Of a stretch of 64,000 nt of DNA, positions 49,161 to 64,000 are shown one piece after another. Position 1 is the stretch's first letter. Every line of letters begins with the position of its first letter. The stretch is taken from the NCBI RefSeq assembly GCF_017348835.2, contig NZ_CP072315.1; one strand, 5' to 3'. This DNA is from Escherichia coli (GTDB lineage: Bacteria > Pseudomonadota > Gammaproteobacteria > Enterobacterales > Enterobacteriaceae). The translations under genes and the position numbers were made by a program. Under the pieces are notes generated by a model. The model worked only from the letters and a program-made list of their open reading frames with translations. It did not search any database and was not told where the DNA came from.

Positions 49161-50738
49161 TTATCCTCGTTTTTCCCAAAACTGTTTTGCCAGTTCGCTC
49201 AGAGCGCTAGTTAACTGAGCGACAGATTTCGCACTTTGCAAATTATTCTGCCCGGTCTGTACATTGGTATCAGCAGCATCGCGTATATTGATAATACTGC
49301 GGTTTATGTCTTCACTTACTGCTCCCTGCTGCTCGACCGCAGTCGCTATTTGCGCGTTCATGTCGGTAATTTCGTTAACGCGTTGGCCAATTCCATCAAG
49401 AGCTGTAGCTGCTTCCTCTGCGTGAGCTACACTCGTGTGCGCTTGCCGACTACTTTGCTCCATGACTGTAACAGCGGATTGCGCTCGCTCTTGTAGAGCG
49501 CTGATCATGCTTTGAATATCCGTTGTCGATTGCTGTGTGCGAGCAGCAAGACTGCGAACCTCATCGGCGACAACAGCAAAACCACGCCCCTGCTCACCAG
49601 CACGCGCGGCCTCAATTGCTGCGTTGAGTGCCAACAAATTCGTTTGCTCGGCGATCCCTCGTATAACGTCAAGAACTTTTGATATCTCGTTACTTTGACC
49701 TTCAAGCTCATGAATAACCTGAGTGGCTTGCCTAATTTCACCTTCAAGGGCAGTGATTGACTGGCTTGTGTGGGCTACCAGACGCTGGCCAGATGCCGTC
49801 TCAGTGTCTGCTCTTCCGGCCGCATCTGCAGCATGCTGTGCATTGCTCGCAACCTCTTGAATGCTTGCCACCATTTGGTTTACTGCCGTTGCTATTTGAT
49901 CTGTCTCTGCCTGCTGCTCAACTGTAAGTACATTGCTTGACTCAATATCCTTTAGTAGGCCTCGGGTGTGTTCGCTAAGCCGATTTGATGCATCACCTAT
50001 GCGACCTACTATGGCGCCTGTTTCAGCTTGCATCATTCGTAAAGCAAACTCTATTTGGCCAAACTCATCGGTGCGCCCAGTGTAGAGGGATTGACTTAAT
50101 GGGTTATTGGAAATATTCCTGGCTCTTTCAACCAGTCTTCCAAGAGGAGAGAGAATAGCCAAAACACTAACAGAGCTTAAGCTTCCTGACATTAAAGTGG
50201 CTAACAATAAGCTGCTTATTGATGTATCAGTAAGCATGCCGGCAGCCATTGCGCTTGATATAATACTACCCCATATGAGCAAGAGTATTTTCACGGAAAA
50301 GCTAGCAGCCAATTTCGGCCTCGCGGCCTTCCCGCTTCTCAATTGAGCATATAATTTTTCCGCAGCCAAAACCTGCTCAGGTTCAGGCTTGGTCCTTACA
50401 GACTGGTATTCAACAATCGAACCATTCTTAGCTATTGGCGTTACATAAGCACTTACCCAATAGTGGTCGCCATTTTTACAGCGATTTTTTACTAGCCCCA
50501 TCCATGAGCGGCCAGATTTTAATGTACTCCACATATGCTCAAATGCAGCAGGCGGCATATCTGGGTGTCTTACGATGTTGTGAGGCTGGCCTAATAGTTC
50601 TTCCTCAGTGAAACCACTGATTTTAATGAAGTCAGGATTAACGTACGTGATATGGCTTTGAGGGGAGGTAGTCGAAAGAATATTGGCATCTTTTGGGAGT
50701 TCTAAGTTTCGACCCGTCACTGGTAAATTCTGGCGCAT
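49161..50738 (-). CDS. Methyl-accepting chemotaxis-like protein (Tn1721 orfI-type) with N-terminal PAS-like region
   Basis: 525 aa from [20 protein letters not shown] signalling-domain character; the 730-aa track ORF is a fusion with antisense IS26 sequence. Confidence 0.8.
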
Positions 50739-50762
50739 AAGAACCTCAAGGGTTGGCTGTTT

Positions 50763-51582
50763 GGCACTGTTGCAAATAGTCGGTGGTGATAAACTTATCA
50801 TCCCCTTTTGCTGATGGAGCTGCACATGAACCCATTCAAAGGCCGGCATTTTCAGCGTGACATCATTCTGTGGGCCGTACGCTGGTACTGCAAATACGGC
50901 ATCAGTTACCGTGAGCTGCAGGAGATGCTGGCTGAACGCGGAGTGAATGTCGATCACTCCACGATTTACCGCTGGGTTCAGCGTTATGCGCCTGAAATGG
51001 AAAAACGGCTGCGCTGGTACTGGCGTAACCCTTCCGATCTTTGCCCGTGGCACATGGATGAAACCTACGTGAAGGTCAATGGCCGCTGGGCGTATCTGTA
51101 CCGGGCCGTCGACAGCCGGGGCCGCACTGTCGATTTTTATCTCTCCTCCCGTCGTAACAGCAAAGCTGCATACCGGTTTCTGGGTAAAATCCTCAACAAC
51201 GTGAAGAAGTGGCAGATCCCGCGATTCATCAACACGGATAAAGCGCCCGCCTATGGTCGCGCGCTTGCTCTGCTCAAACGCGAAGGCCGGTGCCCGTCTG
51301 ACGTTGAACACCGACAGATTAAGTACCGGAACAACGTGATTGAATGCGATCATGGCAAACTGAAACGGATAATCGGCGCCACGCTGGGATTTAAATCCAT
51401 GAAGACGGCTTACGCCACCATCAAAGGTATTGAGGTGATGCGTGCACTACGCAAAGGCCAGGCCTCAGCATTTTATTATGGTGATCCCCTGGGCGAAATG
51501 CGCCTGGTAAGCAGAGTTTTTGAAATGTAAGGCCTTTGAATAAGACAAAAGGCTGCCTCATCGCTAACTTTGCAACAGTGCC
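50763..51582 (+). mobile_element. IS26 copy 4 (820 bp)
   Basis: Both 14-bp ends; lies 24 bp upstream of the mcp start codon. Confidence 0.95.
50826..51530 (+). CDS. tnp26: IS26 transposase Tnp26 (Gly at position 184)
   Basis: 234 aa; KRIIGATLG. Confidence 0.9.
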
Positions 51583-51778
51583 GCGCGACGAGCAGCAGCA
51601 CCAGGAGCAGAAGCACGTCGAGAAAAAGCAACAGCAGATCGAGCAGCGCCCACGGCGGGCCGCTCGCATCGGATAAGTCGAAAAATCCGGCTAAAGTGGC
51701 CGAGCTGCACATCAGGCCGCGCGGTTTTCCTCCCTGATCGCCGGCGCGGTTTCTTCCTCCCTGAACCGCATGCAGACT

Positions 51779-51812
51779 TGCCGCCTCGGACACCCCGAGG
51801 CGGTTTTTTTTC
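51779..51812 (+). terminator. Rho-independent terminator
   Basis: Hairpin CCGCCTCGG-ACACC-CCGAGGCGG followed by eight T residues. Confidence 0.7.
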
Positions 51813-51823
51813 GCCTCGCTCGA

Positions 51824-52037
51824 GCATCGCCGCATCCGACGATGCCGAGACGACCAGGCCGCGCACGTCGAGCTGCAGCATCGCCATTGCCGACGATGGC
51901 ACCAGGTCGCCGGCGGTGGCCACCGACCTCGAGCTCGCATCGCCACATCCGACGATGCGCGCCGGCGTCGACCATCGCCAGGTCTGACGATGGCGGCCGC
52001 CCTGCCCTGGATCTCGCATCGCCATTTCTGGCGATGA
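51824..52037 (+). repeat. Five iterated about 22-bp partly palindromic sites (GCATCG-N10-CGATGC type)
   Basis: Copies at 51824, 51877, 51937, 51972 and 52016, upstream of the serine recombinase gene. Confidence 0.7.
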
Positions 52038-52161
52038 GATCCACGGAGCGGCCATTTAGACCCGCCAATAACGACCCGGCCAAGATAAATCGCATGACGG
52101 CCTTTTTGGCCGGGGGTAGCATGACCGGACACTTTGCGTATGCCCAAAGGAGCCCGCAAGT

Positions 52162-52899
52162 ATGCGCAGGACGAAGCCAGTAGCCGCGCCGATGGTGGCG
52201 CGGGTCTATCTGCGCGTCAGCACCGACGCGCAGGACTTGGAACGCCAAGAGGCGATCACTACGGCCGCGAAGGCCGCCGGCTACTACGTCGCCGGCATCT
52301 ACCGTGAGAAGGCATCCGGCGCACGCGCCGACCGGCCTGAGCTGCTGCGCATGATCGGCGACCTACAGCCCGGCGAGGTGGTCATTGCCGAGAAGATCGA
52401 CCGCATCAGCCGCCTACCTTTGCCCGAGGCCGAGCGCCTGGTGGCCTCGATACAGGCCAAAGGCGCAAGCCTGGCCGTCCCTGGCGTGGTCGATCTATCC
52501 GACCTGGCGGCCGAGGCCCAGGGCGTCGCCAAGATCGTGCTGGAAGCCGTGCAGATCATGCTTTTTCGCCTGGCCTTGCAGATGGCCCGCGACGACTACG
52601 AGGACAGGCGCGAACGCCAGCGCCAAGGCATTGAGTTGGCCCGCCAGGCCGGGCGGTACAAGGGCCGCCGTGCTGATCCGAAGCGCCGCGCCCAAGTTGT
52701 CGCGCTGCGCAAGTCCGGCTACAGCATCAACAAGACCGCCGAGCTGGCCGGGTACAGTGCGGCCCAGGTGAAACGGATATGGGCCGAGGTCAGCCAGGCC
52801 GAAGCGAAGCAGCACGGCGCGTTCGTGGAGGACGCATTGACGGAAGCCGATGCCCTGGCCGCTGTCGGCCAGGATGAGCGCCAGGAGGAAAGGGCATGA
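52162..52899 (+). CDS. Serine recombinase (resolvase/invertase family)
   Basis: 245-aa ORF with N-terminal catalytic-domain character (YLRVSTDAQDLERQ) and a C-terminal HTH; alternative start near 52192. Confidence 0.7.
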   Translation: MRRTKPVAAPMVARVYLRVSTDAQDLERQEAITTAAKAAGYYVAGIYREKASGARADRPELLRMIGDLQPGEVVIAEKIDRISRLPLPEAERLVASIQAKGASLAVPGVVDLSDLAAEAQGVAKIVLEAVQIMLFRLALQMARDDYEDRRERQRQGIELARQAGRYKGRRADPKRRAQVVALRKSGYSINKTAELAGYSAAQVKRIWAEVSQAEAKQHGAFVEDALTEADALAAVGQDERQEERA

Positions 52900-53120
52900 A
52901 GAAGCCGAACCAAGACGACGAGCCGTTTTTCATCACCGAGGAGATTGCGGCCGAAATGATCGCCGGCGGCTATGAGTTCGAGCTGCCGCCCATTCCTTGC
53001 ACCATCCGCCTACGCGACGTGCTGGAGCGCATGACCGATGCTGAGCTAGCATTGCAGCCGGGCGAGATCGCCGACCAGGAGCGTGAACGCTGCCGGCGCA
53101 AGCCGTGTTCAACCTCATGA
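52896..53120 (+). CDS. Hypothetical small protein
   Basis: 74-aa ORF overlapping the recombinase stop (ATGA). Confidence 0.3.
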   Translation: MKKPNQDDEPFFITEEIAAEMIAGGYEFELPPIPCTIRLRDVLERMTDAELALQPGEIADQERERCRRKPCSTS

Positions 53121-53213
53121 TCTGGTCATGGTATTTTTCATGGCACTGAGCCTGATAGTTCTTGCAAATTGTTGTCACTAAAGGGTTTTGTGTGCTTGTT
53201 TACAATCGAGTGG

Positions 53214-54850
53214 GAGTGACGGGCACTGGCTGGCAATGTCTAGCAACGGCAGGCATTTCGGCTGAGGGTAAAAGAACTTTCCGCTAAGCGATAGACTGTA
53301 TGTAAACACAGTATTGCAAGGACGCGGAACATGCCTCATGTGGCGGCCAGGACGGCCAGCCGGGATCGGGATACTGGTCGTTACCAGAGCCACCGACCCG
53401 AGCAAACCCTTCTCTATCAGATCGTTGACGAGTATTACCCGGCATTCGCTGCGCTTATGGCAGAGCAGGGAAAGGAATTGCCGGGCTATGTGCAACGGGA
53501 ATTTGAAGAATTTCTCCAATGCGGGCGGCTGGAGCATGGCTTTCTACGGGTTCGCTGCGAGTCTTGCCACGCCGAGCACCTGGTCGCTTTCAGCTGTAAG
53601 CGTCGCGGTTTCTGCCCGAGCTGTGGGGCGCGGCGGATGGCCGAAAGTGCCGCCTTGCTGGTTGATGAAGTACTGCCTGAACAACCCATGCGTCAGTGGG
53701 TGTTGAGCTTCCCGTTTCAGCTGCGTTTCCTGTTTGCCAGCCGGCCCGAGATCATGGGGTGGGTGCTGGGCATCGTTTACCGCGTCATTGCCACGCACCT
53801 GGTCAAGAAAGCGGGCCATACCCACCAAGTGGCCAAGACGGGCGCGGTCACCCTGATCCAGCGTTTTGGATCGGCGCTCAATCTGAATGTTCACTTCCAC
53901 ATGCTGTTTCTCGACGGTGTGTATGTCGAGCAATCCCACGGCTCAGCGCGTTTCCGCTGGGTCAAGGCGCCGACCAGCCCAGAGCTCACCCAGCTGACGC
54001 ACACCATCGCCCACCGGGTGGGTCGCTATCTGGAACGGCAAGGCCTGCTGGAACGGGATGTCGAAAACAGCTATCTGGCCTCGGATGCGGTGGATGACGA
54101 CCCGATGACACCCCTGCTGGGGCACTCGATCACTTACCGTATCGCTGTCGGTTCACAGGCGGGGCGAAAGGTGTTCACTTTGCAAACTCTGCCGACCAGT
54201 GGTGATCCGTTCGGTGACGGGATTGGCAAGGTAGCCGGGTCCAGCCTGCACGCCGGCGTGGCGGCCAGGGCCGATGAACGCAAGAAGCTCGAACGGCTGT
54301 GCCGGTACATCAGCCGCCCGGCGGTATCCGAGAAGCGGCTGTCGTTAACACGAGGCGGCAACGTGCGCTACCAGCTCAAGACGCCGTACCGGGACGGCAC
54401 CACGCACGTCATTTTCGAACCATTGGATTTCATTGCAAGGCTGGCCGCCCTGGTACCGAAGCCCAGAGTCAACCTAACCCGCTTCCACGGGGTGTTCGCA
54501 CCCAACAGTCGGCACCGGGCGTTGGTCACGCCGGCAAAACGGGGCAGGGGCAACAAGGTCAGGGTGGCTGATGAACCGGCAACACCAGCACAACGGCGAG
54601 CGTCGATGACATGGGCGCAACGGCTCAAGCGTGTTTTCAATATCGACATCGAGACCTGCAGCGGCTGCGGCGGCGCCATGAAAGTCATCGCCTGCATTGA
54701 AGACCCTATAGTGATCAAGCAGATCCTTGATCACCTGAAGCACAAAGCCGAAACCAGCGGGACCAGGGCGTTACCCGAAAGCCGGGCGCCACCGGCTGAG
54801 CTGCTCCTGGGTCTGTTTGACTGACGAGCCTGAAGGCCAACGATACCAAT
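53214..54850 (+). mobile_element. ISCR2 (IS91-like rolling-circle element); 3' boundary approximate
   Basis: Contains the ISCR2-type transposase gene; its first 305 bp are duplicated at 57498-57802. Confidence 0.75.
53331..54824 (+). CDS. ISCR2 transposase (IS91 family)
   Basis: 497-aa ORF MPHVAARTASRDRDTGRYQSHRPEQTLLYQ…. Confidence 0.85.
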   Translation: MPHVAARTASRDRDTGRYQSHRPEQTLLYQIVDEYYPAFAALMAEQGKELPGYVQREFEEFLQCGRLEHGFLRVRCESCHAEHLVAFSCKRRGFCPSCGARRMAESAALLVDEVLPEQPMRQWVLSFPFQLRFLFASRPEIMGWVLGIVYRVIATHLVKKAGHTHQVAKTGAVTLIQRFGSALNLNVHFHMLFLDGVYVEQSHGSARFRWVKAPTSPELTQLTHTIAHRVGRYLERQGLLERDVENSYLASDAVDDDPMTPLLGHSITYRIAVGSQAGRKVFTLQTLPTSGDPFGDGIGKVAGSSLHAGVAARADERKKLERLCRYISRPAVSEKRLSLTRGGNVRYQLKTPYRDGTTHVIFEPLDFIARLAALVPKPRVNLTRFHGVFAPNSRHRALVTPAKRGRGNKVRVADEPATPAQRRASMTWAQRLKRVFNIDIETCSGCGGAMKVIACIEDPIVIKQILDHLKHKAETSGTRALPESRAPPAELLLGLFD

Positions 54851-54854
54851 CAAA

Positions 54855-55739
54855 ATGCTGCGTTCACAGCGCCGCGGCAGGGATCCGCCGTGCTGGTTGT
54901 CGGAAAAGGAGCCGCTAGTGGGAAAGAGGAGGGTAAATTTTCAGCGTTGCTGGCTCCCCGTCAGCCGGATTGGGTTGCATCGCAGGGGTGTCGAAAGAGT
55001 CAACTGCGGTCCAAAGCTGTTGGACTTGGGTGAAAAGGGCGTTTATTCTTCCTATACGTGCCGCGTTCCAGGCGGCGACTATGAGGGCTATGTCGATGCC
55101 CATGTGCGCCGGCTGGAGGCGCTACGCCGGGCCGGTATCGTCGAGCGGATCGACGCCGACCAATGGCGCATCCCCAATGATCTGGTCAGCCGTGCCGCCG
55201 CCCATGACGCCGGCCGAGACAGTCAGGCCAGCGTTCGCGTCCTTTCCCCGGTCGATCTGAACAAACAGATCGGATCGGACGGCGCGACCTGGCTGGACCG
55301 GCGGCTGATCCACGGCGAGACGGCCGACCTTGCGCCAACCGGCTTCGGGCAACAAGTCCGCGAAGCCATGGACCAGCGCCGCGAGCACCATATCGAACAG
55401 GGCGACGCCACCCGCAGCCGGGACAGCCGCGTCTTCTACCGGCGCAACCTTCTCGCCATCCTGCGGGAGCGCGAGGTAGCCGGCGTCGGATCGGATATGG
55501 CTTTGAGTAAGGGCCTGCCGTTCCGCGCCGCCACGGACGGCGAGAGCGTCAGCGGCAAGTTTACCGGAACCGTGCATCTATCGAGCGGCAAGTTCGCCGT
55601 GGTCGAGAAATCCCATGAGTTCACCCTTGTCCCGTGGCGGCCGATCATCGACCGCCAACTCGGCCGCGAGGTTATGGGCATCGTGCAGGGCGGGTCGGTG
55701 TCGTGGCAGTTAGGGCGGCAGAGGGGGCTGGAACGCTGA
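54855..55739 (+). pseudogene. Truncated VirD2-like relaxase fragment of the floR module
   Basis: 294-aa ORF between ISCR2 and floR; assignment from the familiar ISCR2-virD2-fragment-floR-lysR context. Confidence 0.55.
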
Positions 55740-55955
55740 GTGCGCCCATGCCGCATTGCGAAGCAAAAGATAATCGGATAAAATGTAGCAATTCATATTC
55801 GTAAGCGTGGAGTAATCAGATGGGAAATTCCAAGTCAGCAGACAAGTAAGCCGCAACAACCAGTATTGTTGTTGCGGCGCTCTGTAAGGCTAGTCTCATC
55901 TGATTGCTGACGAGCAGACGTCGCCCGGTATTCCTTAATCGAGGGTTGATTCGTC

Positions 55956-57170
55956 ATGACCACCACACGCCCCGCGTGGGCCTATACGCTGCCGGCAGCA
56001 CTGCTGCTGATGGCTCCTTTCGACATCCTCGCTTCACTGGCGATGGATATTTATCTCCCTGTCGTTCCAGCGATGCCCGGCATCCTGAACACGACGCCCG
56101 CTATGATCCAACTCACGTTGAGCCTCTATATGGTGATGCTCGGCGTGGGCCAGGTGATTTTTGGTCCGCTCTCAGACAGAATCGGGCGACGGCCAATTCT
56201 ACTTGCGGGCGCAACGGCTTTCGTCATTGCGTCTCTGGGAGCAGCTTGGTCTTCAACTGCACCGGCCTTTGTCGCTTTCCGTCTACTTCAAGCAGTGGGC
56301 GCGTCGGCCATGCTGGTGGCGACGTTCGCGACGGTTCGCGACGTTTATGCCAACCGTCCTGAGGGTGTCGTCATCTACGGCCTTTTCAGTTCGATGCTGG
56401 CGTTCGTGCCTGCGCTCGGCCCTATCGCCGGAACATTGATCGGCGAGTTCTTGGGATGGCAGGCGATATTCATTACTTTGGCTATACTGGCGATGCTCGC
56501 ACTCCTAAATGCGGGTTTCAGGTGGCACGAAACCCGCCCTCTGGATCAAGTCAAGACGCGCCGATCTGTCTTGCCGATCTTCGCGAGTCCGGCTTTTTGG
56601 GTTTACACTGTCGGCTTTAGCGCCGGTATGGGCACCTACTTCGTCTTCTTCTCGACGGCTCCCCGTGTGCTCATAGGCCAAGCGGAATATTCCGAGATCG
56701 GATTCAGCTTTGCCTTCGCCACTGTCGCGCTTGTAATGATCGTGACAACCCGTTTCGCGAAGTCCTTTGTCGCCAGATGGGGCATCGCAGGATGCGTGGC
56801 GCGTGGGATGGCGTTGCTTGTTTGCGGAGCGGTCCTGTTGGGGATCGGCGAACTTTACGGCTCGCCGTCATTCCTCACCTTCATCCTACCGATGTGGGTT
56901 GTCGCGGTCGGTATTGTCTTCACGGTGTCCGTTACCGCGAACGGCGCTTTGGCAGAGTTCGACGACATCGCGGGATCAGCGGTCGCGTTCTACTTCTGCG
57001 TTCAAAGCCTGATAGTCAGCATTGTCGGGACATTGGCGGTGGCACTTTTAAACGGTGACACAGCGTGGCCCGTGATCTGTTACGCCACGGCGATGGCGGT
57101 ACTGGTTTCGTTGGGGCTGGTGCTCCTTCGGCTCCGTGGGGCTGCCACCGAGAAGTCGCCAGTCGTCTAA
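55956..57170 (+). CDS. floR: Florfenicol/chloramphenicol MFS exporter FloR
   Basis: 404 aa MTTTRPAWAYTLPAALLLMAPFDILASLAMDIYLPVV…. Confidence 0.95.
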   Translation: MTTTRPAWAYTLPAALLLMAPFDILASLAMDIYLPVVPAMPGILNTTPAMIQLTLSLYMVMLGVGQVIFGPLSDRIGRRPILLAGATAFVIASLGAAWSSTAPAFVAFRLLQAVGASAMLVATFATVRDVYANRPEGVVIYGLFSSMLAFVPALGPIAGTLIGEFLGWQAIFITLAILAMLALLNAGFRWHETRPLDQVKTRRSVLPIFASPAFWVYTVGFSAGMGTYFVFFSTAPRVLIGQAEYSEIGFSFAFATVALVMIVTTRFAKSFVARWGIAGCVARGMALLVCGAVLLGIGELYGSPSFLTFILPMWVVAVGIVFTVSVTANGALAEFDDIAGSAVAFYFCVQSLIVSIVGTLAVALLNGDTAWPVICYATAMAVLVSLGLVLLRLRGAATEKSPVV

Positions 57171-57197
57171 CCGACGACTGGTAGCAGGCCCGCTCCG

Positions 57198-57503
57198 ATG
57201 CGGCGCACTAACCATCGAAACCTCGTGAATGTCGGTATCCTGTCTGGCAGGATACCGCTCATTTCCCTTGTTCAGTTCATCGCCGTCGCCGAGCATCTGA
57301 ATTTTCGGCATGCGGCCAAGGCACTTGGTATCAGCCAGTCGAGCGTCAGCGCGCGTGTGAAAGCGCTGGAGGATAACCTTGGTGTCCTGCTATTTGAGCG
57401 CCATGCGCGGGGCGTTCGGCTAACAGACGCAGGCAGGCACTTCATGGAGCGTGTCACGGCGGGTGTCGATCAACTCGATCACGCAGTGAAGACCGCGGAG
57501 TGA
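57198..57503 (+). pseudogene. lysR: Truncated LysR-family regulator
   Basis: 101 aa with LysR HTH only; cut off by the ISCR2 5' fragment. Confidence 0.75.
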
Positions 57504-57802
57504 CGGGCACTGGCTGGCAATGTCTAGCAACGGCAGGCATTTCGGCTGAGGGTAAAAGAACTTTCCGCTAAGCGATAGACTGTATGTAAACACAGTATTG
57601 CAAGGACGCGGAACATGCCTCATGTGGCGGCCAGGACGGCCAGCCGGGATCGGGATACTGGTCGTTACCAGAGCCACCGACCCGAGCAAACCCTTCTCTA
57701 TCAGATCGTTGACGAGTATTACCCGGCATTCGCTGCGCTTATGGCAGAGCAGGGAAAGGAATTGCCGGGCTATGTGCAACGGGAATTTGAAGAATTTCTC
57801 CA
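57498..57802 (+). mobile_element. ISCR2 5' fragment (305-bp direct repeat of 53214-53518)
   Basis: Identical by eye to the start of the complete ISCR2, including the first 63 codons of its transposase. Confidence 0.85.
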
Positions 57803-58969
57803 AAGCCCGCGACGCAGCGCCGGCAGGCAGAGCAAGTAGAGGGCAGCGCCTGCAATCCATGCCCACCCGTTCCACGTTGTTATAGAAGCCGCATAGATCG
57901 CCGTGAAGAGGAGGGGTCCGACGATCGAGGTCAGGCTGGTGAGCGCCGCCAGTGAGCCTTGCAGCTGCCCCTGACGTTCCTCATCCACCTGCCTGGACAA
58001 CATTGCTTGCAGCGCCGGCATTCCGATGCCACCCGAAGCAAGCAGGACCATGATCGGGAACGCCATCCATCCCCGTGTCGCGAAGGCAAGCAGGATGTAG
58101 CCTGTGCCGTCGGCAATCATTCCGAGCATGAGTGCCCGCCTTTCGCCGAGCCGGGCGGCTACAGGGCCGGTGATCATTGCCTGGGCGAGTGAATGCAGAA
58201 TGCCAAATGCGGCAAGCGAAATGCCGATCGTGGTCGCGTCCCAGTGAAAGCGATCCTCGCCGAAAATGACCCAAAGCGCGGCCGGCACCTGTCCGACAAG
58301 TTGCATGATGAAGAAGACCGCCATCAGGGCGGCGACGACGGTCATGCCCCGGGCCCACCGGAACGAAGCGAGCGGGTTGAGAGCCTCCCGGCGTAACGGC
58401 CGGCGTTCGCCTTTGTGCGACTCCGGCAAAAGGAAACAGCCCGTCAGGAAATTGAGGCCGTTCAAGGCTGCCGCGGCGAAGAACGGAGCGTGGGGGGAGA
58501 AACCGCCCATCAGCCCACCGAGCACAGGTCCCGCGACCATCCCGAACCCGAAACAGGCGCTCATGAAGCCGAAGTGCCGCGCGCGCTCATCGCCATCAGT
58601 GATATCGGCAATATAAGCGCCGGCTACCGCCCCAGTCGCCCCGGTGATGCCGGCCACGATCCGCCCGATATAGAGAACCCAAAGGAAAGGCGTCGTCGCC
58701 ATGATGGCGTAGTCGACAGCAGCGCCGGCCAGCGAGACGAGCAAGACCGGCCGCCGCCCGAAACGATCCGACAGCGCGCCCAGCACAGGTGCGCAGGCAA
58801 ATTGCATCAACGCATACAGCGCCAGCAGAATGCCATAGTGGGCGGTGACGTCGTTCGAGTGAACCAGATCGCGCAGGAGGCCCGGCAGCACCGGCATAAT
58901 CAGGCCGATGCCGACAGCGTCGAGCGCGACAGTGCTCAGAATTACGATCAGGGGTCTGTTGGGTTTCAC
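57770..58969 (-). CDS. tetA(A): Tetracycline efflux protein TetA(A), 3' end replaced by ISCR2-derived sequence
   Basis: 399 aa from a GTG start (V)KPNRPLIVILSTVALDAVG…; the last 33 nt lie inside the ISCR2 fragment, giving a …RRGLWRNSSNSRCT C-terminus. Confidence 0.9.
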   Translation of the reverse strand: MKPNRPLIVILSTVALDAVGIGLIMPVLPGLLRDLVHSNDVTAHYGILLALYALMQFACAPVLGALSDRFGRRPVLLVSLAGAAVDYAIMATTPFLWVLYIGRIVAGITGATGAVAGAYIADITDGDERARHFGFMSACFGFGMVAGPVLGGLMGGFSPHAPFFAAAALNGLNFLTGCFLLPESHKGERRPLRREALNPLASFRWARGMTVVAALMAVFFIMQLVGQVPAALWVIFGEDRFHWDATTIGISLAAFGILHSLAQAMITGPVAARLGERRALMLGMIADGTGYILLAFATRGWMAFPIMVLLASGGIGMPALQAMLSRQVDEERQGQLQGSLAALTSLTSIVGPLLFTAIYAASITTWNGWAWIAGAALYLLCLPALRRGLWRNSSNSRCT

Positions 58970-59017
58970 GTCTGGCCTCCGGACCAGCCTCCGCTGGTCC
59001 GATTGAACGCGCGGATT

Positions 59018-59066
59018 CTTTATCACTGATAAGTTGGTGGACATATTATGTTTATCAGTGATAAAG
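59018..59066. promoter_or_regulatory. tet operator region (two palindromic operators) between tetA and tetR
   Basis: TTTATCACTGATAA and TTTATCAGTGATAAA palindromes in the divergent intergenic region. Confidence 0.8.
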
Positions 59067-59074
59067 TGTCAAGC

Positions 59075-59725
59075 ATGACAAAGTTGCAGCCGAATACAGT
59101 GATCCGTGCCGCCCTGGACCTGTTGAACGAGGTCGGCGTAGACGGTCTGACGACACGCAAACTGGCGGAACGGTTGGGGGTTCAGCAGCCGGCGCTTTAC
59201 TGGCACTTCAGGAACAAGCGGGCGCTGCTCGACGCACTGGCCGAAGCCATGCTGGCGGAGAATCATACGCATTCGGTGCCGAGAGCCGACGACGACTGGC
59301 GCTCATTTCTGATCGGGAATGCCCGCAGCTTCAGGCAGGCGCTGCTCGCCTACCGCGATGGCGCGCGCATCCATGCCGGCACGCGACCGGGCGCACCGCA
59401 GATGGAAACGGCCGACGCGCAGCTTCGCTTCCTCTGCGAGGCGGGTTTTTCGGCCGGGGACGCCGTCAATGCGCTGATGACAATCAGCTACTTCACTGTT
59501 GGGGCCGTGCTTGAGGAGCAGGCCGGCGACAGCGATGCCGGCGAGCGCGGCGGCACCGTTGAACAGGCTCCGCTCTCGCCGCTGTTGCGGGCCGCGATAG
59601 ACGCCTTCGACGAAGCCGATCCGGACGCAGCGTTCGAGCAGGGACTCGCGGTGATTGTCGATGGATTGGCGAAAAGGAGGCTCGTTGTCAGGAACGTTGA
59701 AGGACCGAGAAAGGGTGACGATTGA
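59075..59725 (+). CDS. tetR(A): Tetracycline repressor TetR(A)
   Basis: 216 aa from MTKLQPNTVIRAALDLLNEVGVDGLTTRKLAERLGVQQPALYWHF. Confidence 0.95.
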   Translation: MTKLQPNTVIRAALDLLNEVGVDGLTTRKLAERLGVQQPALYWHFRNKRALLDALAEAMLAENHTHSVPRADDDWRSFLIGNARSFRQALLAYRDGARIHAGTRPGAPQMETADAQLRFLCEAGFSAGDAVNALMTISYFTVGAVLEEQAGDSDAGERGGTVEQAPLSPLLRAAIDAFDEADPDAAFEQGLAVIVDGLAKRRLVVRNVEGPRKGDD

Positions 59726-60198
59726 TCAGGACCGCTGCCGGAGCGCAACCCACTCACTACAGCAGAGCCATGTAGACAACATCCCCTCCCCCTTTCCACC
59801 GCGTCAGACGCCCGTAGCAGCCCGCTACGGGCTTTTTCATGCCCTGCCCTAGCGTCCAAGCCTCACGGCCGCGCTCGGCCTCTCTGGCGGCCTTCTGGCG
59901 CTCCTGCTGCGGCGTCCGCTCGTGGGCCGTGGCGCGGGTCCGCGCGCCGGCCTCGTGCGCCTGGCGCTCGCGGGCGAGGTCCAGGGCGGCCGTCTTCACG
60001 TTCTGCCTTGCGCAGATGAGATAGATCTAGCGTGGACTCAAGGCTCTCGCGAATGGCTCGCGTTGGAAACTTTCATTGACACTTGAGGGGCACCGCAGGG
60101 AAATTCTCGTCCTTGCGAGAACCGGCTATGTCGTGCTGCGCATCGAGCCTGCGCCCTTGGCTTGTCTCGCCCCTCTCCGCGTCGCTACGGGGCTTCCA

Positions 60199-60236
60199 GG
60201 GGTCGTTTGCGGGAAGGGGCGGAATCCTACGCTAAG
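60199..60236 (+). repeat. Tn3-family 38-bp inverted repeat, Tn5393-like, downstream of strB
   Basis: GGGGTCGTTTGCGGGAAGGGGCGGAATCCTACGCTAAG, 68 bp from the strB stop. Confidence 0.7.
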
Positions 60237-60304
60237 GCTTTGGCCAGCGATATTCTCCGGTGAGATTGATGTGTTCCCAGGGGATAGGAGAAGTCGCTTG
60301 ATAT

Positions 60305-61141
60305 CTAGTATGACGTCTGTCGCACCTGCTTGATCGCGGCCGCGATAGCTAGATCGCGTTGCTCCTCTTCTCCATCCGCGTTCCAAGCTGCGGAAAGGCA
60401 CCCATAAGCGTACGCCTGGTCGAGCAGGCGACGCGGATCGACGTCCAGCGCACGAGAGAATGCGTCCGCCATCTGTGCAATGCGTCTAGGATCGAGACAA
60501 AGGTCGTCTCTGTCAGCCGGATCGTAGAACATATTGGCGGCGCCAAAGCCCACTTCACCGACCAGACCGACGGGATCTATCACCAGCCAGCCGCGACTGG
60601 AGAACATGATGTTTTCATGATGCAGATCGCCATGTAGCCCACGCAGTTCCGAGGCATTGCTCATCATTTGATCGGCTATAATCGCCGCGTGGACGTAGTC
60701 AGTTTGACAACCTGCGTTTTGATCATCGCGCGCCCGCTGAAACAAAGCTGCAAAGCGATCCCGGATCGGGAGAAGGGCAGAAGGCAGGGGTTCCTCAGAT
60801 GCGGCATACAGCTTCGCCATTAGTTCCGCTGCAATTTCGGTCGCCTGGTAGTCGCCGTGCTCGGCAACGATGTGAGAGAGCATTCGCTCCCCGGCATATT
60901 CGAGCAACATCAGATTGTTCTCACGACCGAGCAACCGGACTGCTCCCCTCCCATTGCGCCATACCAGATAGTCGGCCCCGCGCAGTTCATCAGCAATGTC
61001 TTCTATAGGTTTCAATCCCTTGACGATTGCAGGAGTCCCGTCTGGCAATGAAACTTTCCAAACGAGGCTGGAAAAGGTGTCCGCAATGAGAACAGGTTGC
61101 GAAACGTGCCAATGAGCAGGAAAAACAGGCGGCATGAACAT
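60305..61141 (-). CDS. strB: Aminoglycoside 6-phosphotransferase APH(6)-Id (StrB)
   Basis: 278 aa from MFMPPVFPAHWHVSQPVLIADTFSSLVWKV. Confidence 0.95.
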   Translation of the reverse strand: MFMPPVFPAHWHVSQPVLIADTFSSLVWKVSLPDGTPAIVKGLKPIEDIADELRGADYLVWRNGRGAVRLLGRENNLMLLEYAGERMLSHIVAEHGDYQATEIAAELMAKLYAASEEPLPSALLPIRDRFAALFQRARDDQNAGCQTDYVHAAIIADQMMSNASELRGLHGDLHHENIMFSSRGWLVIDPVGLVGEVGFGAANMFYDPADRDDLCLDPRRIAQMADAFSRALDVDPRRLLDQAYAYGCLSAAWNADGEEEQRDLAIAAAIKQVRQTSY

Positions 61142-61944
61142 CAACCCCAAGTCAGAGGGTCCAATCGCAGATAGAAGGCAAGGCGTTCGCGGTCGGGGGC
61201 TTCGATCCCCAATACATTGAATAGGACAGCGAAGGCGCGCTCTGCTTCATCTGGCGCTGCCCAGTTCTCTTCGGCGTTAGCAATCATGAGTGCCAAATCG
61301 GCATAGCGATCTGCTGTTCCGAGCCGCCCAAGGTCGATCAGACCCGTGCATTGAAGAGTTTTAGGGTCCACCATGAAGTTCGGCATGCAGGGATCACCAT
61401 GGCAAACAACCATATCGGTGCGCTCTTGGTCGAGCCGCACCGGTAGCTCTCGTTCGACACGAGCCAAAAGATCGAGCTGCGGCGTACTCTTGTCCTCGTC
61501 CGGTAAGAAGTCGGGATTGACGGCATTGCGGGACACCACATCAACGGCGCGTCCGAACATTCGCGACAGCCTGCGCTCAAACGGACATTGATCAACCGAT
61601 AGGCTGTGAACAGCGCCAAGTTGCTGCCCCATTGACGGCCACGCTTTGAGCAAATCCGCTCCAGACAGATCAGCCGCCGGTACTCCCGGAATTGCCGTTA
61701 TCACCAAGCATGCACCCTCCTGTTCCTCCTGCCAGTTGATGACCTCGGGGCAAGCCACACCTCGACCTTTGAGCCAAATGAGGCGGTCACGCTCTCCAGC
61801 GAGCTCACCGCGGCGGGAAGCAGGTGCGATTTTCGCGAAGGCATGCCCGTCACCACGTCGAAAAACAAAATCACCAGATTCTCCGCCTCTGACAGGCAAC
61901 CAGTCAGAATGCGATTCACCAAAAAAAATATTAGTTCGATTCAA
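61141..61944 (-). CDS. strA: Aminoglycoside 3''-phosphotransferase APH(3'')-Ib (StrA)
   Basis: 267 aa MNRTNIFFGESHSDWLPVRGGESGDFVFRRGDGHAFAKIAPASRRGELAGERDRL. Confidence 0.95.
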   Translation of the reverse strand: MNRTNIFFGESHSDWLPVRGGESGDFVFRRGDGHAFAKIAPASRRGELAGERDRLIWLKGRGVACPEVINWQEEQEGACLVITAIPGVPAADLSGADLLKAWPSMGQQLGAVHSLSVDQCPFERRLSRMFGRAVDVVSRNAVNPDFLPDEDKSTPQLDLLARVERELPVRLDQERTDMVVCHGDPCMPNFMVDPKTLQCTGLIDLGRLGTADRYADLALMIANAEENWAAPDEAERAFAVLFNVLGIEAPDRERLAFYLRLDPLTWG

Positions 61945-62004
61945 TGGAGGTTCCTTCAGTTTTCTGATGAAGCGCGAATATAGAGAAATATCCCGAATGT
62001 GCAG

Positions 62005-62820
62005 TTAACGAATTCTTGCGGTTTCTTTTAGCGCCGCCAATACCGCCAGCCCGTCGCGCAAGGGGCGCGGCTCGTGTGTGCGGATGAAGTCAGCTCCACC
62101 TGCGGCGGCGGCAAGCTCTGCAGCGAGTGTCGCGGCCCCGACATCCCCCGGACCACGGCCTGTGAGCGCGCGCAGAAAGGATTTGCGCGAAACAGACAGA
62201 AGCACCGGCAAATCGAAGCGCAGCCGCAATTCATCGAACCGCGCCAGCACCGAGAGCGAGGTTTCGGGAGCAGCCCCCAGAAAAAACCCCATGCCGGGAT
62301 CAAGGACAAGGCGGTTGCGTTTGATACCGGCACCCGTCAGCGCCGCGATGCGCGCGTCAAAGAACGCCGCAATGTGATCCATGATGTCGCCAGCGGGTGC
62401 CTCGCGCCGATCTGCCTGCCCGTCTTGCACCGAATGCATAACGACGAGTTTGGCAGATGATTTCGCCAATTGCGGATAGAACGCAGCGTCTGGAAAACCG
62501 CGAATATCATTGAGATAGGCCACACCACGCGACAAGGCATAGGCTTGCGTCGCGGGTTGATAACTGTCGAGCGAGACGGGAATGCCATCTGCCTTGAGCG
62601 CGTCCAGCACCGGCGCGATACGCTCGATTTCTGTGTCGGACGAAACAGGCGCGGCGTCGGGGTTGCTGGATGCCGGACCGAGGTCGATCACATCTGCCCC
62701 CTCGGCCATCAACTTACGCGCCTGCGCAATGGCTGCGTCTGGCGCCAGATACCGGCCTCCATCGGAGAAACTGTCCGAGGTTATGTTGACGATGCCGAAA
62801 ATGATGAGCGATTTATTCAT
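62005..62820 (-). CDS. sul2: Sulfonamide-resistant dihydropteroate synthase Sul2
   Basis: 271 aa MNKSLIIFGIVNITSDSFSDGGRYLAPDAAIAQARKLMAEGADVIDLGPASSNPDA. Confidence 0.95.
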   Translation of the reverse strand: MNKSLIIFGIVNITSDSFSDGGRYLAPDAAIAQARKLMAEGADVIDLGPASSNPDAAPVSSDTEIERIAPVLDALKADGIPVSLDSYQPATQAYALSRGVAYLNDIRGFPDAAFYPQLAKSSAKLVVMHSVQDGQADRREAPAGDIMDHIAAFFDARIAALTGAGIKRNRLVLDPGMGFFLGAAPETSLSVLARFDELRLRFDLPVLLSVSRKSFLRALTGRGPGDVGAATLAAELAAAAGGADFIRTHEPRPLRDGLAVLAALKETARIR

Positions 62821-63127
62821 GGGGGCTTCTATAATAATAATAATCGAGCATGAGTCTCATACGGATGCTCGGGTCGAAAGGGAATCCCCAGGCGAGTAAC
62901 CTGTTTGCGGTGATCCATTAGCTGCAGGAGCAGAATAGCATACATCTGGAAGCAAAGCCAGGAAAGCGGCCTATGGAGCTGTGCGGCAGCGCTCAGTAGG
63001 CAATTTTTCAAAATATTGTTAAGCCTTTTCTGAGCATGGTATTTTTCATGGTATTACCAATTAGCAGGAAAATAAGCCATTGAATATAAAAGATAAAAAT
63101 GTCTTGTTTACAATAGAGTGGGGGGGG

Positions 63128-63979
63128 TCAGCCTGCCGCCTTGGGCCGGGTGATGTCGTACTTGCCCGCCGCGAACTCGGTTACCGTCCAGCCCAGCGCG
63201 ACCAGCTCCGGCAACGCCTCGCGCACCCGCTGGCGGCGCTTGCGCATGGTCGAACCACTGGCCTCTGACGGCCAGACATAGCCGCACAAGGTATCTATGG
63301 AAGCCTTGCCGGTTTTGCCGGGGTCGATCCAGCCACACAGCCGCTGGTGCAGCAGGCGGGCGGTTTCGCTGTCCAGCGCCCGCACCTCGTCCATGCTGAT
63401 GCGCACATGCTGGCCGCCACCCATGACGGCCTGCGCGATCAAGGGGTTCAGGGCCACGTACAGGCGCCCGTCCGCCTCGTCGCTGGCGTACTCCGACAGC
63501 AGCCGAAACCCCTGCCGCTTGCGGCCATTCTGGGCGATGATGGATACCTTCCAAAGGCGCTCGATGCAGTCCTGTATGTGCTTGAGCGCCCCACCACTAT
63601 CGACCTCTGCCCCGATTTCCTTTGCCAGCGCCCGATAGCTACCTTTGACCACCATGGCATCAGCGGTGACGGCCTCCCACTTGGGTTCCAGGAACAGCCG
63701 GAGCTGCCGTCCGCCTTCGGTCTTGGGTTCCGGGCCAAGCACTAGGCCATTAGGCCCAGCCATGGCCACCAGCCCTTGCAGGATGCGCAGATCATCAGCG
63801 CCCAGCGGCTCCGGGCCGCTGAACTCGATCCGCTTGCCGTCGCCGTAGTCATACGTCACGTCCAGCTTGCTGCGCTTGCGCTCGCCCCGCTTGAGGGCAC
63901 GGAACAGGCCGGGGGCCAGACAGTGCGCCGGGTCGTGCCGGACGTGGCTGAGGCTGTGCTTGTTCTTAGGCTTCACCAC
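63128..63979 (-). CDS. repC: RSF1010-type (IncQ) replication protein RepC
   Basis: 283 aa MVKPKNKHSLSHVRHDPAHCLAPGLFRALKRGERKRSKLDVTYDYGDGKRIEF…. Confidence 0.9.
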   Translation of the reverse strand: MVKPKNKHSLSHVRHDPAHCLAPGLFRALKRGERKRSKLDVTYDYGDGKRIEFSGPEPLGADDLRILQGLVAMAGPNGLVLGPEPKTEGGRQLRLFLEPKWEAVTADAMVVKGSYRALAKEIGAEVDSGGALKHIQDCIERLWKVSIIAQNGRKRQGFRLLSEYASDEADGRLYVALNPLIAQAVMGGGQHVRISMDEVRALDSETARLLHQRLCGWIDPGKTGKASIDTLCGYVWPSEASGSTMRKRRQRVREALPELVALGWTVTEFAAGKYDITRPKAAG

Positions 63980-64000
63980 GGGGCACCCCCTTGCTCTTGC
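63976..64000 (-). pseudogene. repA: 3' end of RSF1010-type repA (runs off the window edge)
   Basis: Reading frame overlapping the repC start, as in the RSF1010 repA-repC arrangement; only about 8 codons visible. Confidence 0.5.

What the first reader, a model, noticed from the sequence alone, without database searches (positions are those of the whole stretch)
53120..53213. Short homology between the ISCR2 upstream flank and the sul2 upstream region
CATGGTATTTTTCATGG and CTTGTTTACAAT(C/A)GAGTGG occur both at 53136-53212 and at 63033-63117 (upstream of sul2). This suggests both derive from the canonical sul2-ISCR2 junction and could mediate recombination between the floR and sul2 modules.
Basis: seen in the sequence. 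Interest (0 to 1): 0.2.

Follow-up and report, generated by a model that had tools for sequence, protein, structure and literature searches.

The report
GIsul2 integrase att sites flanking ISCR2–sul2
The two short matching words are the two attachment sites (attLR and attR) that a genomic-island integrase uses to cut out the ISCR2-to-sul2 resistance segment; this system is already published, but one of the two words looks like an undescribed accessory binding site conserved in many bacteria.

Summary
Two boxes recur on the same strand: TCTG..CATGGTATTTTTCATGG (53121-53143 / 63029-63051, 21/23) and CTTGTTTACAAT[C/A]GAGTGGG (53195-53214 / 63103-63122, 19/20). They are exactly 51 nt apart in both copies, and the spacer is at chance identity (15/51).

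They are not a decayed duplicate of one sul2-ISCR2 junction. Box 2 holds the published GIsul2 att core GAGTGGGA. The copy upstream of rcr2 is attLR. The copy about 304 bp upstream of sul2 is attR, here joined to RSF1010 repC (Zhang et al. 2022, PMC9376610). Together they bound a 9.9-kb, integrase-less "CR2-sul2 unit" carrying floR, tetA and strAB.

Box 1 is not mentioned in that paper. It is a tandem CATGGTAT repeat. The same word recurs in the int-proximal arm of an intact GIsul2, and the integrase has an arm-DNA-binding domain. Box 1 is kept 48-49 nt from box 2 in 21 of 24 distinct arms from diverse genomes. Conversely, 79 of 84 metagenomic box-1 sites have the core at the expected offset. 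I read it as an arm-type accessory site.

No int or alpA is in the window, so any recombination needs a helper. Core finding already known; the arm architecture is a modest new detail.

The parts
52133..53207 (+). Remnant of the right end of GI12K, the int-bearing part of GIsul2. It comprises the resolvase resG (52162-52899), a 74-aa ORF (52896-53120) and the arm leading to attLR. It is truncated on the left near an IS26.
   Evidence: Window 52133-55059 is 99.9% identical to intact GIsul2; gene order as in L002 and L001; Pfam Resolvase + HTH_7.
53121..53146 (+). Box 1 of the attLR arm: a tandem 12-nt-period repeat, CATGGTAT (53127-53134) followed by a degenerate CATGGCAC (53139-53146). Proposed arm-type accessory protein-binding site.
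   Evidence: In intact GIsul2, 6 of 7 CATGGTAT words lie next to att cores. Conserved at a fixed distance in relatives.
53144..53194 (+). 51-nt spacer of the attLR arm. It is unrelated in sequence to the attR spacer but has the same length.
   Evidence: 15/51 identity; spacers diverge across 24 arm variants while the gap stays 48-49 nt.
53195..53214 (+). Box 2 of copy 1. It contains the published 19-bp attLR (53201-53219, TACAATCGAGTGGGAGTGA) and the core GAGTGGGA (53208-53215).
   Evidence: It lies 112-130 bp upstream of the rcr2 ATG (53331), as published (PMC9376610); sequence read.
53212..53256 (+). 5' ('terIS') end of ISCR2, which forms the right half of attLR. It carries three C[T/A]GGCA[A/T] words at a 10-nt period (53230-53236, 53240-53246, 53250-53256).
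   Evidence: The published terIS starts inside the core. The same reiterated word is seen in the GIsul2 int-proximal arm and in many metagenomic right flanks: 26/162 flanks have at least 2 copies against 0.6 expected.
53331..54824 (+). rcr2, the ISCR2/ISVsa3 IS91-family transposase gene.
53208..63122 (.). The att-bounded, integrase-less 'expanded CR2-sul2 unit': ISCR2, a DUF3363 ORF, floR, lysR', a truncated ISCR2 5' end (57497-57824), tetA/tetR, strB-strA and sul2.
   Evidence: Annotation; GIsul2 identity resumes at 61964-63122; concept from PMC9376610.
62005..62820 (-). sul2.
63029..63054 (+). Box 1 of the attR arm: two perfect tandem CATGGTAT repeats (63035-63042 and 63047-63054).
63073..63085 (+). 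IHF-like motif TAAGCCATTGAAT (relaxed YAANNNNTTGAWW) in the attR spacer.
   Evidence: the relaxed motif sits at a fixed offset in 40/84 metagenomic arms; the strict IHF consensus occurs in 12/84 against 0.54 expected. Inference only.
63103..63122 (+). Box 2 of copy 2. It contains attR (63109-63127, TACAATAGAGTGGGGGGGG) with core GAGTGGGG (63116-63123). Identity to GIsul2 stops after GAGTGGG.
   Evidence: Among the listed spread of 4,089 matching plasmid records, most share the sul2 arm only up to 63122. This agrees with the published boundary 304 bp upstream of sul2.
63123..63979 (-). RSF1010/IncQ1 backbone: a G-run, then repC (63128-63979). It replaces the normal chromosomal right half of attR.
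   Evidence: The G-run is present next to repC in a sul2-free IncQ plasmid (L097).

Best explanation
The two segments are the left ('P-arm') halves of two attachment sites of the GIsul2 integrative element.

Identity of the sites. attLR is at 53201-53219 with core GAGTGGGA; its right half is the 5' end of ISCR2. attR is at 63109-63127 with core GAGTGGGG; its right half is RSF1010 DNA. Box 2 is the core-type site plus the 7-bp crossover region.

Box 1. Box 1 lies about 61 nt to the left of the crossover region. It is a tandem CATGGTAT repeat. I propose it is an arm-type binding site, most likely for the N-terminal arm-binding domain of the GIsul2 tyrosine integrase, less likely for the AlpA excisionase. 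In the sul2-type arm an IHF-like site lies between box 1 and the core.

Predicted reaction. With Int (and AlpA) supplied in trans by a resident GIsul2-family island, attLR x attR recombination would excise the 9.9-kb ISCR2-floR-tetA-strAB-sul2 segment as a circle able to re-integrate at guaA-type sites. The segment therefore behaves as a cis-mobilisable, integrase-less passenger.

Shown elsewhere: Int-dependent attLR x attR excision and integration of the basic CR2-sul2 unit (Zhang et al. 2022).

Shown here: identity of the sites, the conserved two-box architecture, and natural junctions at the core.

Inferred: which protein binds box 1, and whether this particular attR, which lacks its native right half, still works.
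For: Identity of the sites.
- An intact GIsul2 at guaA (L002) has the same sequences at attLR and attR.
- Window 52133-55059 and 61964-63122 are 99.5-99.9% identical to it.
- Positions match the published attLR (112-130 bp upstream of rcr2) and the published boundary 304 bp upstream of sul2, with core GAGTGGGA.

Box 1 as a functional arm site.
- CATGGTAT occurs 7 times in the 41-kb locus (0.87 expected). Six of the seven lie within 300 bp of an att core, including three in the int-proximal arm in both orientations.
- Int has a Pfam Arm-DNA-bind_3 domain (E = 1e-19).
- Of 24 distinct arms ascertained on box 2 only, 21 keep the 20-mer (at most 4 mismatches) at a 48-49 nt gap, and 2 more keep the proximal repeat. 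Only 2 of 12,000 shuffles reach 4 mismatches. Median pairwise identity is 0.90 for box 1 and 0.45 for the spacer.
- Reciprocally, 79 of 84 distinct metagenomic box-1 sites have GAGTGGG (at most 1 mismatch) at offset 60-62; the null is 0.8%.
- An Int about 80% identical keeps CATGGTAT near int, whereas the ~60% Int subfamily has a different reiterated word there.

Activity in nature.
- The CR2-sul2 unit sits alone at the guaA 3' end in four unrelated genera.
- The sul2 arm ends at GAGTGGG in most of the listed plasmid contexts.
- An IncQ1 plasmid carries the attLR-left / RSF1010-right hybrid at 100% identity over 300 nt, with the crossover confined to the 7-bp core.
- In Zhang's assay attR, which has two perfect repeats, outperformed attLR, which has one perfect repeat, by about 70-fold (Table 1). 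This is consistent with the model but is not proof.
Against: - No protein-binding data exist for box 1. AlpA or a host factor could be the binder.
- Co-variation between Int subfamily and P-arm word could not be tested, because the right ends of the ~60%-Int islands lay outside the fetched DNA.
- The window has no int or alpA.
- Its attR has GAGTGGGG and a non-native right half. Zhang et al. report that Harmer et al. 2017 saw no excision from an IncC context with non-conserved att sites. The site here may therefore be a fossil.
- Harmer 2017, Leclercq 2016 and Hamidian & Hall 2016 could not be read, so box 1 may already have been noticed.
- Ascertainment on exact box 2 or box 1 enriches for close relatives.
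Confidence: 0.85

Rival explanations
1. One reading: the two segments are decayed copies of a single ancestral sul2-ISCR2 junction, a duplication, and could drive homologous recombination between the floR and sul2 modules.
For: The boxes are on the same strand, in the same order and at the same 51-nt spacing. ISCR2 and sul2 are indeed linked in GIsul2.
Against: The spacer is at chance identity while the boxes are 91-95% identical, which is not neutral decay. In GIsul2 the two segments are at opposite ends of the unit, not at the ISCR2-sul2 junction. The same two-box pattern recurs in dozens of unrelated arms. Identity runs of 17-21 bp are too short for efficient RecA exchange (established knowledge). 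The one natural hybrid has its crossover inside the 7-bp core.
Confidence: 0.04
2. The boxes are promoter or regulatory elements: the sul2 promoter and an outward promoter upstream of rcr2.
For: A weak sigma-70-like match on the minus strand (TAAACA-16-TATATT, 63110 to 63083) uses part of box 2 as its -35 and points toward sul2.
Against: There is no promoter-like match at the attLR copy. There the neighbouring ORFs read toward the site, not away from it. The boxes are conserved next to many different cargo genes. Box 1 lies about 215 bp from the sul2 start codon, well away from that putative promoter.
Confidence: 0.05
3. Box 1 is a functional cis site but binds the AlpA-type excisionase (recombination directionality factor) or a host protein rather than the integrase arm domain.
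For: Tandem direct repeats at about one helical turn are typical of excisionase sites on P arms (established knowledge of lambda Xis). alpA lies next to int. A second reiterated word, C[T/A]GGCA[C/A], exists on the other side of the core and could instead be the Int arm site.
Against: CATGGYAT words occur on both arms and in both orientations, clustered just upstream of int. That is the pattern of Int arm-type sites and autoregulation rather than of an excisionase.
Confidence: 0.25
4. The boxes are part of ISCR2 itself, an extended terIS recognised by the rolling-circle transposase.
For: Box 2 overlaps the published terIS by 3-4 nt. Diverged rcr2 homologues also sit right of such sites.
Against: A second ISCR2 5' end at 57497 shares identity only from 53213/53214 onward, so both boxes lie outside ISCR2. 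The attR copy has no ISCR2 to its right. Deleting rcr2 had no effect on mobilisation in Zhang et al..
Confidence: 0.03

Closest known systems
GIsul2 att sites attL / attLR / attR and the CR2-sul2 unit (Harmer et al. 2017; Zhang et al. 2022, PMC9376610)
   Same: Same sequences, same core GAGTGGGA, same positions relative to rcr2 and sul2, and the same idea of an Int-mobilised ISCR2...sul2 unit carrying extra resistance genes.
   Different: The published sites are 19 bp; box 1, the fixed spacing and the IHF-like motif are not described there. Here attR is the RSF1010-joined version (GAGTGGGG plus a G-run) without the native right half. No int is present.
Lambda-type attP architecture: arm-type Int sites, IHF sites and core-type sites (Landy 2014)
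   Same: A reiterated word distinct from the core occurs on both arms. The integrase has an arm-binding N-domain. A bend-site-like motif lies between the arm site and the core. The crossover region is 7 bp.
   Different: No binding or footprint data. The arm is compact (about 90 bp). Which protein binds box 1 is untested.
CIMEs (cis-mobilisable elements) and tandem accretion of integrative elements (Guedon et al. 2017, PMC5704250)
   Same: An integrase-less segment is bounded by att sites recognised by a neighbouring or co-resident element's integrase. Tandem arrays are seen with int-bearing islands (L014, L022, L040, L076, L096).
   Different: CIMEs were defined in Streptococcus ICEs as decayed elements. 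Here the passenger is built around an IS91-family gene and resistance genes.
ISCR2 / IS91-family rolling-circle model: terIS and oriIS (Toleman et al. 2006)
   Same: The published terIS begins at 53212, inside the core.
   Different: The conserved boxes lie outside ISCR2 and also occur where no ISCR2 is present. The boundaries behave as integrase crossover points rather than rolling-circle termini.

Membership tests
GIsul2 att sites (attLR / attR of the CR2-sul2 unit) | 19-bp site containing the core 5'-GAGTGGGA-3' | tested here: met
   attLR 53201-53219 has the exact core at 53208-53215. attR 63109-63127 has GAGTGGGG (7/8) because its right side is RSF1010 DNA.
GIsul2 att sites (attLR / attR of the CR2-sul2 unit) | attLR lies 112-130 bp upstream of rcr2; the unit's other boundary lies about 304 bp upstream of sul2 | tested here: met
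   The rcr2 ATG is at 53331, giving 53201-53219. The sul2 ATG is at 62820, and identity to GIsul2 ends at 63122.
GIsul2 att sites (attLR / attR of the CR2-sul2 unit) | Sequence identity to a bona fide GIsul2 inserted at the guaA 3' end | tested here: met
   99.9% (52133-55059) and 99.5% (61964-63122) identity to L002, an intact island between guaA and yfgI.
GIsul2 att sites (attLR / attR of the CR2-sul2 unit) | Cognate tyrosine integrase (and AlpA) available | tested here: not met
   tblastn of Int and AlpA against the window gives no hit. A helper island elsewhere in the host would be required.
GIsul2 att sites (attLR / attR of the CR2-sul2 unit) | Int-dependent recombination between the two sites | not testable with these tools
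   Shown experimentally for the canonical unit (PMC9376610). Here there is only indirect support from natural junctions at the core.
Arm-type (accessory) site of a lambda-like attP | Integrase carries an arm-DNA-binding domain | tested here: met
   Pfam PF13356 Arm-DNA-bind_3, residues 2-88, E = 1.1e-19.
Arm-type (accessory) site of a lambda-like attP | A reiterated word, different from the core, clustered on both arms | tested here: met
   CATGGTAT: 6 of 7 occurrences in 41 kb lie in the three arms, in both orientations near int.
Arm-type (accessory) site of a lambda-like attP | Conserved in sequence and distance among diverged relatives | tested here: met
   21/24 arms (plus 2 partial) at a 48-49 nt gap; 79/84 in the reciprocal set.
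Arm-type (accessory) site of a lambda-like attP | Arm word co-varies with integrase subfamily | tested here: inconclusive
   Int-proximal arms differ between subfamilies (CATGGTAT versus GACGGTAA), but the matching P arms of the 60% subfamily were not in the fetched DNA.
Arm-type (accessory) site of a lambda-like attP | Direct binding by the Int N-domain | not testable with these tools
   Needs EMSA or footprinting.
ISCR2 (IS91-family) terminus | The sequence lies within the element as delimited by independent copies | tested here: not met
   The second ISCR2 5' end (57497-) matches only from 53213 onward, so both boxes are outside.
Sigma-70 promoter | -35/-10 hexamers at both copies, oriented toward a gene | tested here: not met
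   Only a weak match at the sul2 copy and none at the attLR copy.

The most novel reading that the evidence does not exclude
The roughly 90-bp two-box arm is tandem CATGGTAT, then a fixed 48-49 nt spacer (often with an IHF-like site), then CTYRTTKAYAAT-N-GAGTGGG. It may be the conserved cis-acting signature of a very large, mostly marine, guaA-targeting family of integrative elements. Under this reading the so-called terIS end of ISCR2, with its three C[T/A]GGCA words, is really the other arm of such a site. ISCR2-sul2 units, and many integrase-less cargo modules in environmental bacteria, would then be att-bounded satellites moved by borrowed integrases rather than by rolling-circle transposition. 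The quality of box 1 (two perfect repeats in attR, one in attLR) would set how efficiently each end recombines.
Probability: 0.45. Interest if true: 0.5.

Novelty: already known. Interest (0 to 1): 0.3.

Why it matters
The ISCR2...sul2 array carrying floR, tetA and strAB is among the most widespread resistance segments in Enterobacterales plasmids: in the plasmid collection, 448 records have one match covering at least 80% of window 50500-64000.

Recognising its two ends as integrase att sites, not IS91 termini or random homology, tells annotators where the mobile unit really starts and stops (53208 and 63122). It also says which helper could move it: a GIsul2-family Int plus AlpA.

The extra conserved box gives a concrete handle. 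It is a testable cis requirement. It is a possible explanation for the unequal activity of attR and attLR. It is also a search pattern that retrieves dozens of uncharacterised relatives. None of this overturns current understanding.

Tried and rejected
- Local and global alignments of the two regions looking for extended homology: none beyond the two boxes.
- Promoter and terminator scans: only a weak sul2-side match.
- Looking for int or alpA in the window: absent.
- Testing co-variation of the arm word with Int subfamily: the right ends of the ~60%-Int islands were not within the fetched loci. Metagenomic arms had no Int homologue within reach. In L114 the DNA to the right of the site is ordinary cargo.
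- Looking for the circular or tandem junction (sul2 arm + ISCR2 5' end) in plasmids: only diverged relatives at 90-95% identity (Acinetobacter), no exact product.
- Using an IncQ relative as the 'empty site': L097 shows that the G-run belongs to the backbone, but it is a different lineage, so the pristine target could not be reconstructed exactly.
- Reading Leclercq 2016 and Hamidian & Hall 2016: not held. Harmer 2017 has no PMC id, so no look-up was attempted. Full-text searches for 'arm-type' with GIsul2, and for the box sequences, found nothing.
- L002 could not at first be read in the sandbox; built-in tools were used instead.

Full report
**Observation.** Each occurs exactly twice in the window, with none expected by chance. 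Extended by alignment, block 1 is TCTG..CATGGTATTTTTCATGG at 53121-53143 and 63029-63051 (21/23). Block 2 is CTTGTTTACAAT[C/A]GAGTGGG at 53195-53214 and 63103-63122 (19/20). The blocks are separated by exactly 51 nt in both copies, yet those 51 nt match at only 15 positions, which is chance level. So the similarity is not an extended homology. It is two conserved boxes at a fixed distance.

**Context.** The neighbourhood reads IS26, a resolvase (52162-52899), a 74-aa ORF (52896-53120), copy 1, ISCR2/ISVsa3 (rcr2 53331-54824), a DUF3363 ORF, floR, lysR', a truncated ISCR2 5' end (57497-57824), tetA/tetR, strB-strA and sul2 (62005-62820, minus strand). Copy 2 follows, then RSF1010 repC (63128-63979, minus strand). 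The two ISCR2 5' ends share identity only from 53213/53214 onward, so both boxes lie outside ISCR2.

**What it is.** Zhang et al. 2022 (PMC9376610) showed that the tyrosine integrase of genomic island GIsul2 recombines three 19-bp att sites sharing the core GAGTGGGA:
- attL, next to guaA and int;
- attLR, 112-130 bp upstream of rcr2;
- attR, at the island's right end, with the unit's boundary 304 bp upstream of sul2.

They also showed that attLR x attR excises a "CR2-sul2 unit" which often carries extra resistance genes. In the window, 53201-53219 (TACAATCGAGTGGGAGTGA, core 53208-53215) is exactly attLR. 63109-63127 (TACAATAGAGTGGGGGGGG, core 63116-63123) is attR. I fetched an intact GIsul2 between guaA and yfgI in an E. 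coli chromosome (L002). Its attLR and attR regions are identical to the window's copies as far as GAGTGGG. Window 52133-55059 and 61964-63122 are 99.9% and 99.5% identical to it. The resolvase and the 74-aa ORF are therefore the right end of the int-bearing part of the island (GI12K). Positions 53208-63122 form an expanded, integrase-less CR2-sul2 unit. The window encodes no Int or AlpA.

**The RSF1010 junction.** Identity to GIsul2 stops at GAGTGGG|G (63122), and an 8-G run leads into the repC stop codon. A sul2-free IncQ plasmid has a 6-G run directly next to repC (L097). The join therefore lies within the G's of the core. This fits the relaxed secondary sites (TGGG, GGGA) reported for this integrase. 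Among the listed spread of 4,089 matching plasmid records, most share the sul2 arm only up to 63122. That is the behaviour of an att boundary.

**Block 1 is the part not covered by the paper.** The paper describes only 19-bp sites and never uses the word "arm". Five lines of evidence suggest block 1 is a functional accessory site.
1. In the 41-kb GIsul2 locus, CATGGTAT occurs 7 times against 0.87 expected. Six of the seven lie within 300 bp of an att core: three in the arm between attL and int (both orientations), one at attLR and two at attR.
2. The integrase has a Pfam Arm-DNA-bind_3 domain (E = 1e-19).
3. I scanned one genome per species for block 2 only. Of 24 distinct arms, 21 retain CATGGTATTTTTCATGGTAT (at most 4 mismatches) at a gap of 48 or 49 nt, and two more keep the core-proximal repeat. 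Only 2 of 12,000 shuffles reach 4 mismatches. Median pairwise identity is 0.90 for block 1 and 0.45 for the spacer.
4. I then scanned metagenomes for block 1 only, using a variant that excludes the sul2 and GI12K arms. Of 84 distinct sequences, 79 have GAGTGGG (at most 1 mismatch) at offset 60-62 (null 0.8%). The left half of block 2 varies as CTYRTTKAYAAT.
5. An integrase about 80% identical keeps CATGGTAT words near int. A ~60%-identity subfamily has a different reiterated word there, GACGGTAA.

In addition, many arms carry an IHF-like motif at a fixed offset between the boxes. The strict consensus occurs in 12/84 against 0.54 expected. The window's attR arm has a relaxed match at 63073 and the attLR arm has none. 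This layout, arm repeats then a bend site then the core, is the classical lambda-type P arm. Which protein binds block 1 (the Int N-domain, or AlpA) remains an inference.

**Evidence that the sites act in nature.**
- The CR2-sul2 unit sits alone, directly after guaA, in Luteimonas, a Caulobacterales MAG, Alloalcanivorax and Brevundimonas.
- Several genomes show the sul2 arm followed by another island's integrase, that is, tandem accretion.
- I built the predicted attLR x attR deletion junction for this window, the GI12K arm joined to GAGTGGG and the RSF1010 side. One IncQ1 plasmid (AP022278.1) matches it at 100% over all 300 nt.
- That plasmid's insert (ISCR2, aac(6')-Ia, a truncated 74-aa ORF, then the arm) is bounded on both sides by the core...GTAC|GGGAGTGACGGG and ...ACAATCGAGTGGG|GGGGGTCAGCC.
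- Because the C variant left of the core is retained, the crossover, or an independent insertion, lies within the 7-bp core. That is an integrase signature, not a RecA one.
- The exact circle junction was not found in plasmids.

It is partly right. The segments are related and recombinogenic. They are not remnants of one sul2-ISCR2 junction: they are the opposite outer ends of the unit. The relevant recombination is site-specific and helper-dependent. Homologous exchange is unlikely with 17-21 bp of identity.

Whether this attR still works is uncertain. Its right half-site is RSF1010 DNA. Zhang et al. attribute an earlier failure to detect excision to non-conserved att sites.

**Rivals.**
- A promoter role is not supported. 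There is only a weak minus-strand match at the sul2 copy and none at attLR, and the neighbouring ORFs at attLR read toward the site.
- An extended ISCR2 terminus is excluded by the second ISCR2 copy, and by the attR copy having no ISCR2 beside it.
- AlpA or a host factor binding block 1, instead of Int, remains open.

**Comparison and novelty.** The feature belongs to a published system (GIsul2 attLR/attR, the CR2-sul2 unit). It works like a lambda-type att site bounding a CIME-like passenger (PMC5704250). The core finding is already known.

The conserved arm box, its fixed spacing and its breadth across Proteobacteria and marine metagenomes appear undescribed in the literature I could search. 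Three key subscription papers were not available to me: look-ups of Leclercq 2016 and Hamidian & Hall 2016 failed, and Harmer 2017 has no PMC id.

I also noted a second reiterated word on the right of the core, C[T/A]GGCA[C/A] x3 at a 10-11 nt period. It is shared by the ISCR2 "terIS" end (53230-53256), the GIsul2 int-proximal arm and many metagenomic flanks. It hints that the ISCR2 5' end is itself an att arm.

Interest is modest: a useful annotation correction and a testable refinement, not a surprise.

Noticed in passing
L192 (AP022278.1) 5290-5310 and 8080-8105: An IncQ1 plasmid carries ISCR2, aac(6')-Ia, a truncated 74-aa ORF and the GI12K-type arm, inserted between the oriV iterons and repC. 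Both boundaries fall in the att core. The same repC G-run site as in RSF1010 has therefore received a unit with the other arm type.
   Followed up: partly
L003 (NZ_CP080069.1, 4,608-bp tet(X4) circle) 1060-1090: ISCR2 is preceded by ...GTGCCAACTATTGAGTGGGA. This is an attL/attB-type left half that reads like the 3' end of a foreign guaA (..PTIEWE*). It suggests this ISCR2-tet(X4) module once sat at a guaA att site.
   Followed up: partly
window 53230-53256; L002 about 8929-8955; many L098-L191 loci: Three C[T/A]GGCA[C/A/T] words at a 10-11 nt period lie immediately right of the core. They occur in the ISCR2 'terIS' end, in the GIsul2 int-proximal arm and in many metagenomic flanks (26/162 flanks have at least 2 copies against 0.6 expected). 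This is possibly a second protein-binding array.
   Followed up: partly
L109 (973, 3888), L123 (640, 8562), L149 (608, 4646): Metagenomic contigs carry two box-1/box-2 arms 2.9-7.9 kb apart and no integrase homologue nearby. They look like tandem integrase-less cargo modules bounded by the same att architecture, mostly from marine or sediment samples.
   Followed up: no
L022, L076, L096, L040, L014 (300 nt right of the core): A ~60%-identity integrase subfamily targeting the same core has GACGGTAA / GACGGTCT words in its int-proximal arm instead of CATGGTAT. This is a possible example of arm-site/integrase co-evolution.
   Followed up: partly
L002 10815-12495: GIsul2 itself encodes IncQ-type RepA and RepC proteins. 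In the window its sul2 end is fused to the repC of the IncQ plasmid RSF1010. Whether that relatedness played any role in the fusion was not examined.
   Followed up: no
window 57497-57824: A second, truncated ISCR2 5' end follows lysR'. It is 100% identical to 53213-53519 at the DNA level, and its first 70 codons of rcr2 are 93% identical. It defines the ISCR2 left boundary at 53213/53214.
   Followed up: yes
window 41114-41881 (minus strand) and 36.7-51.6 kb: Another sul gene, whose product is 53.5% identical to Sul2, lies here together with at least four IS26 copies and three copies of a 123-nt repeat (42212, 43176, 45111). This indicates a larger IS26-rich multiresistance region upstream.
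   Followed up: no
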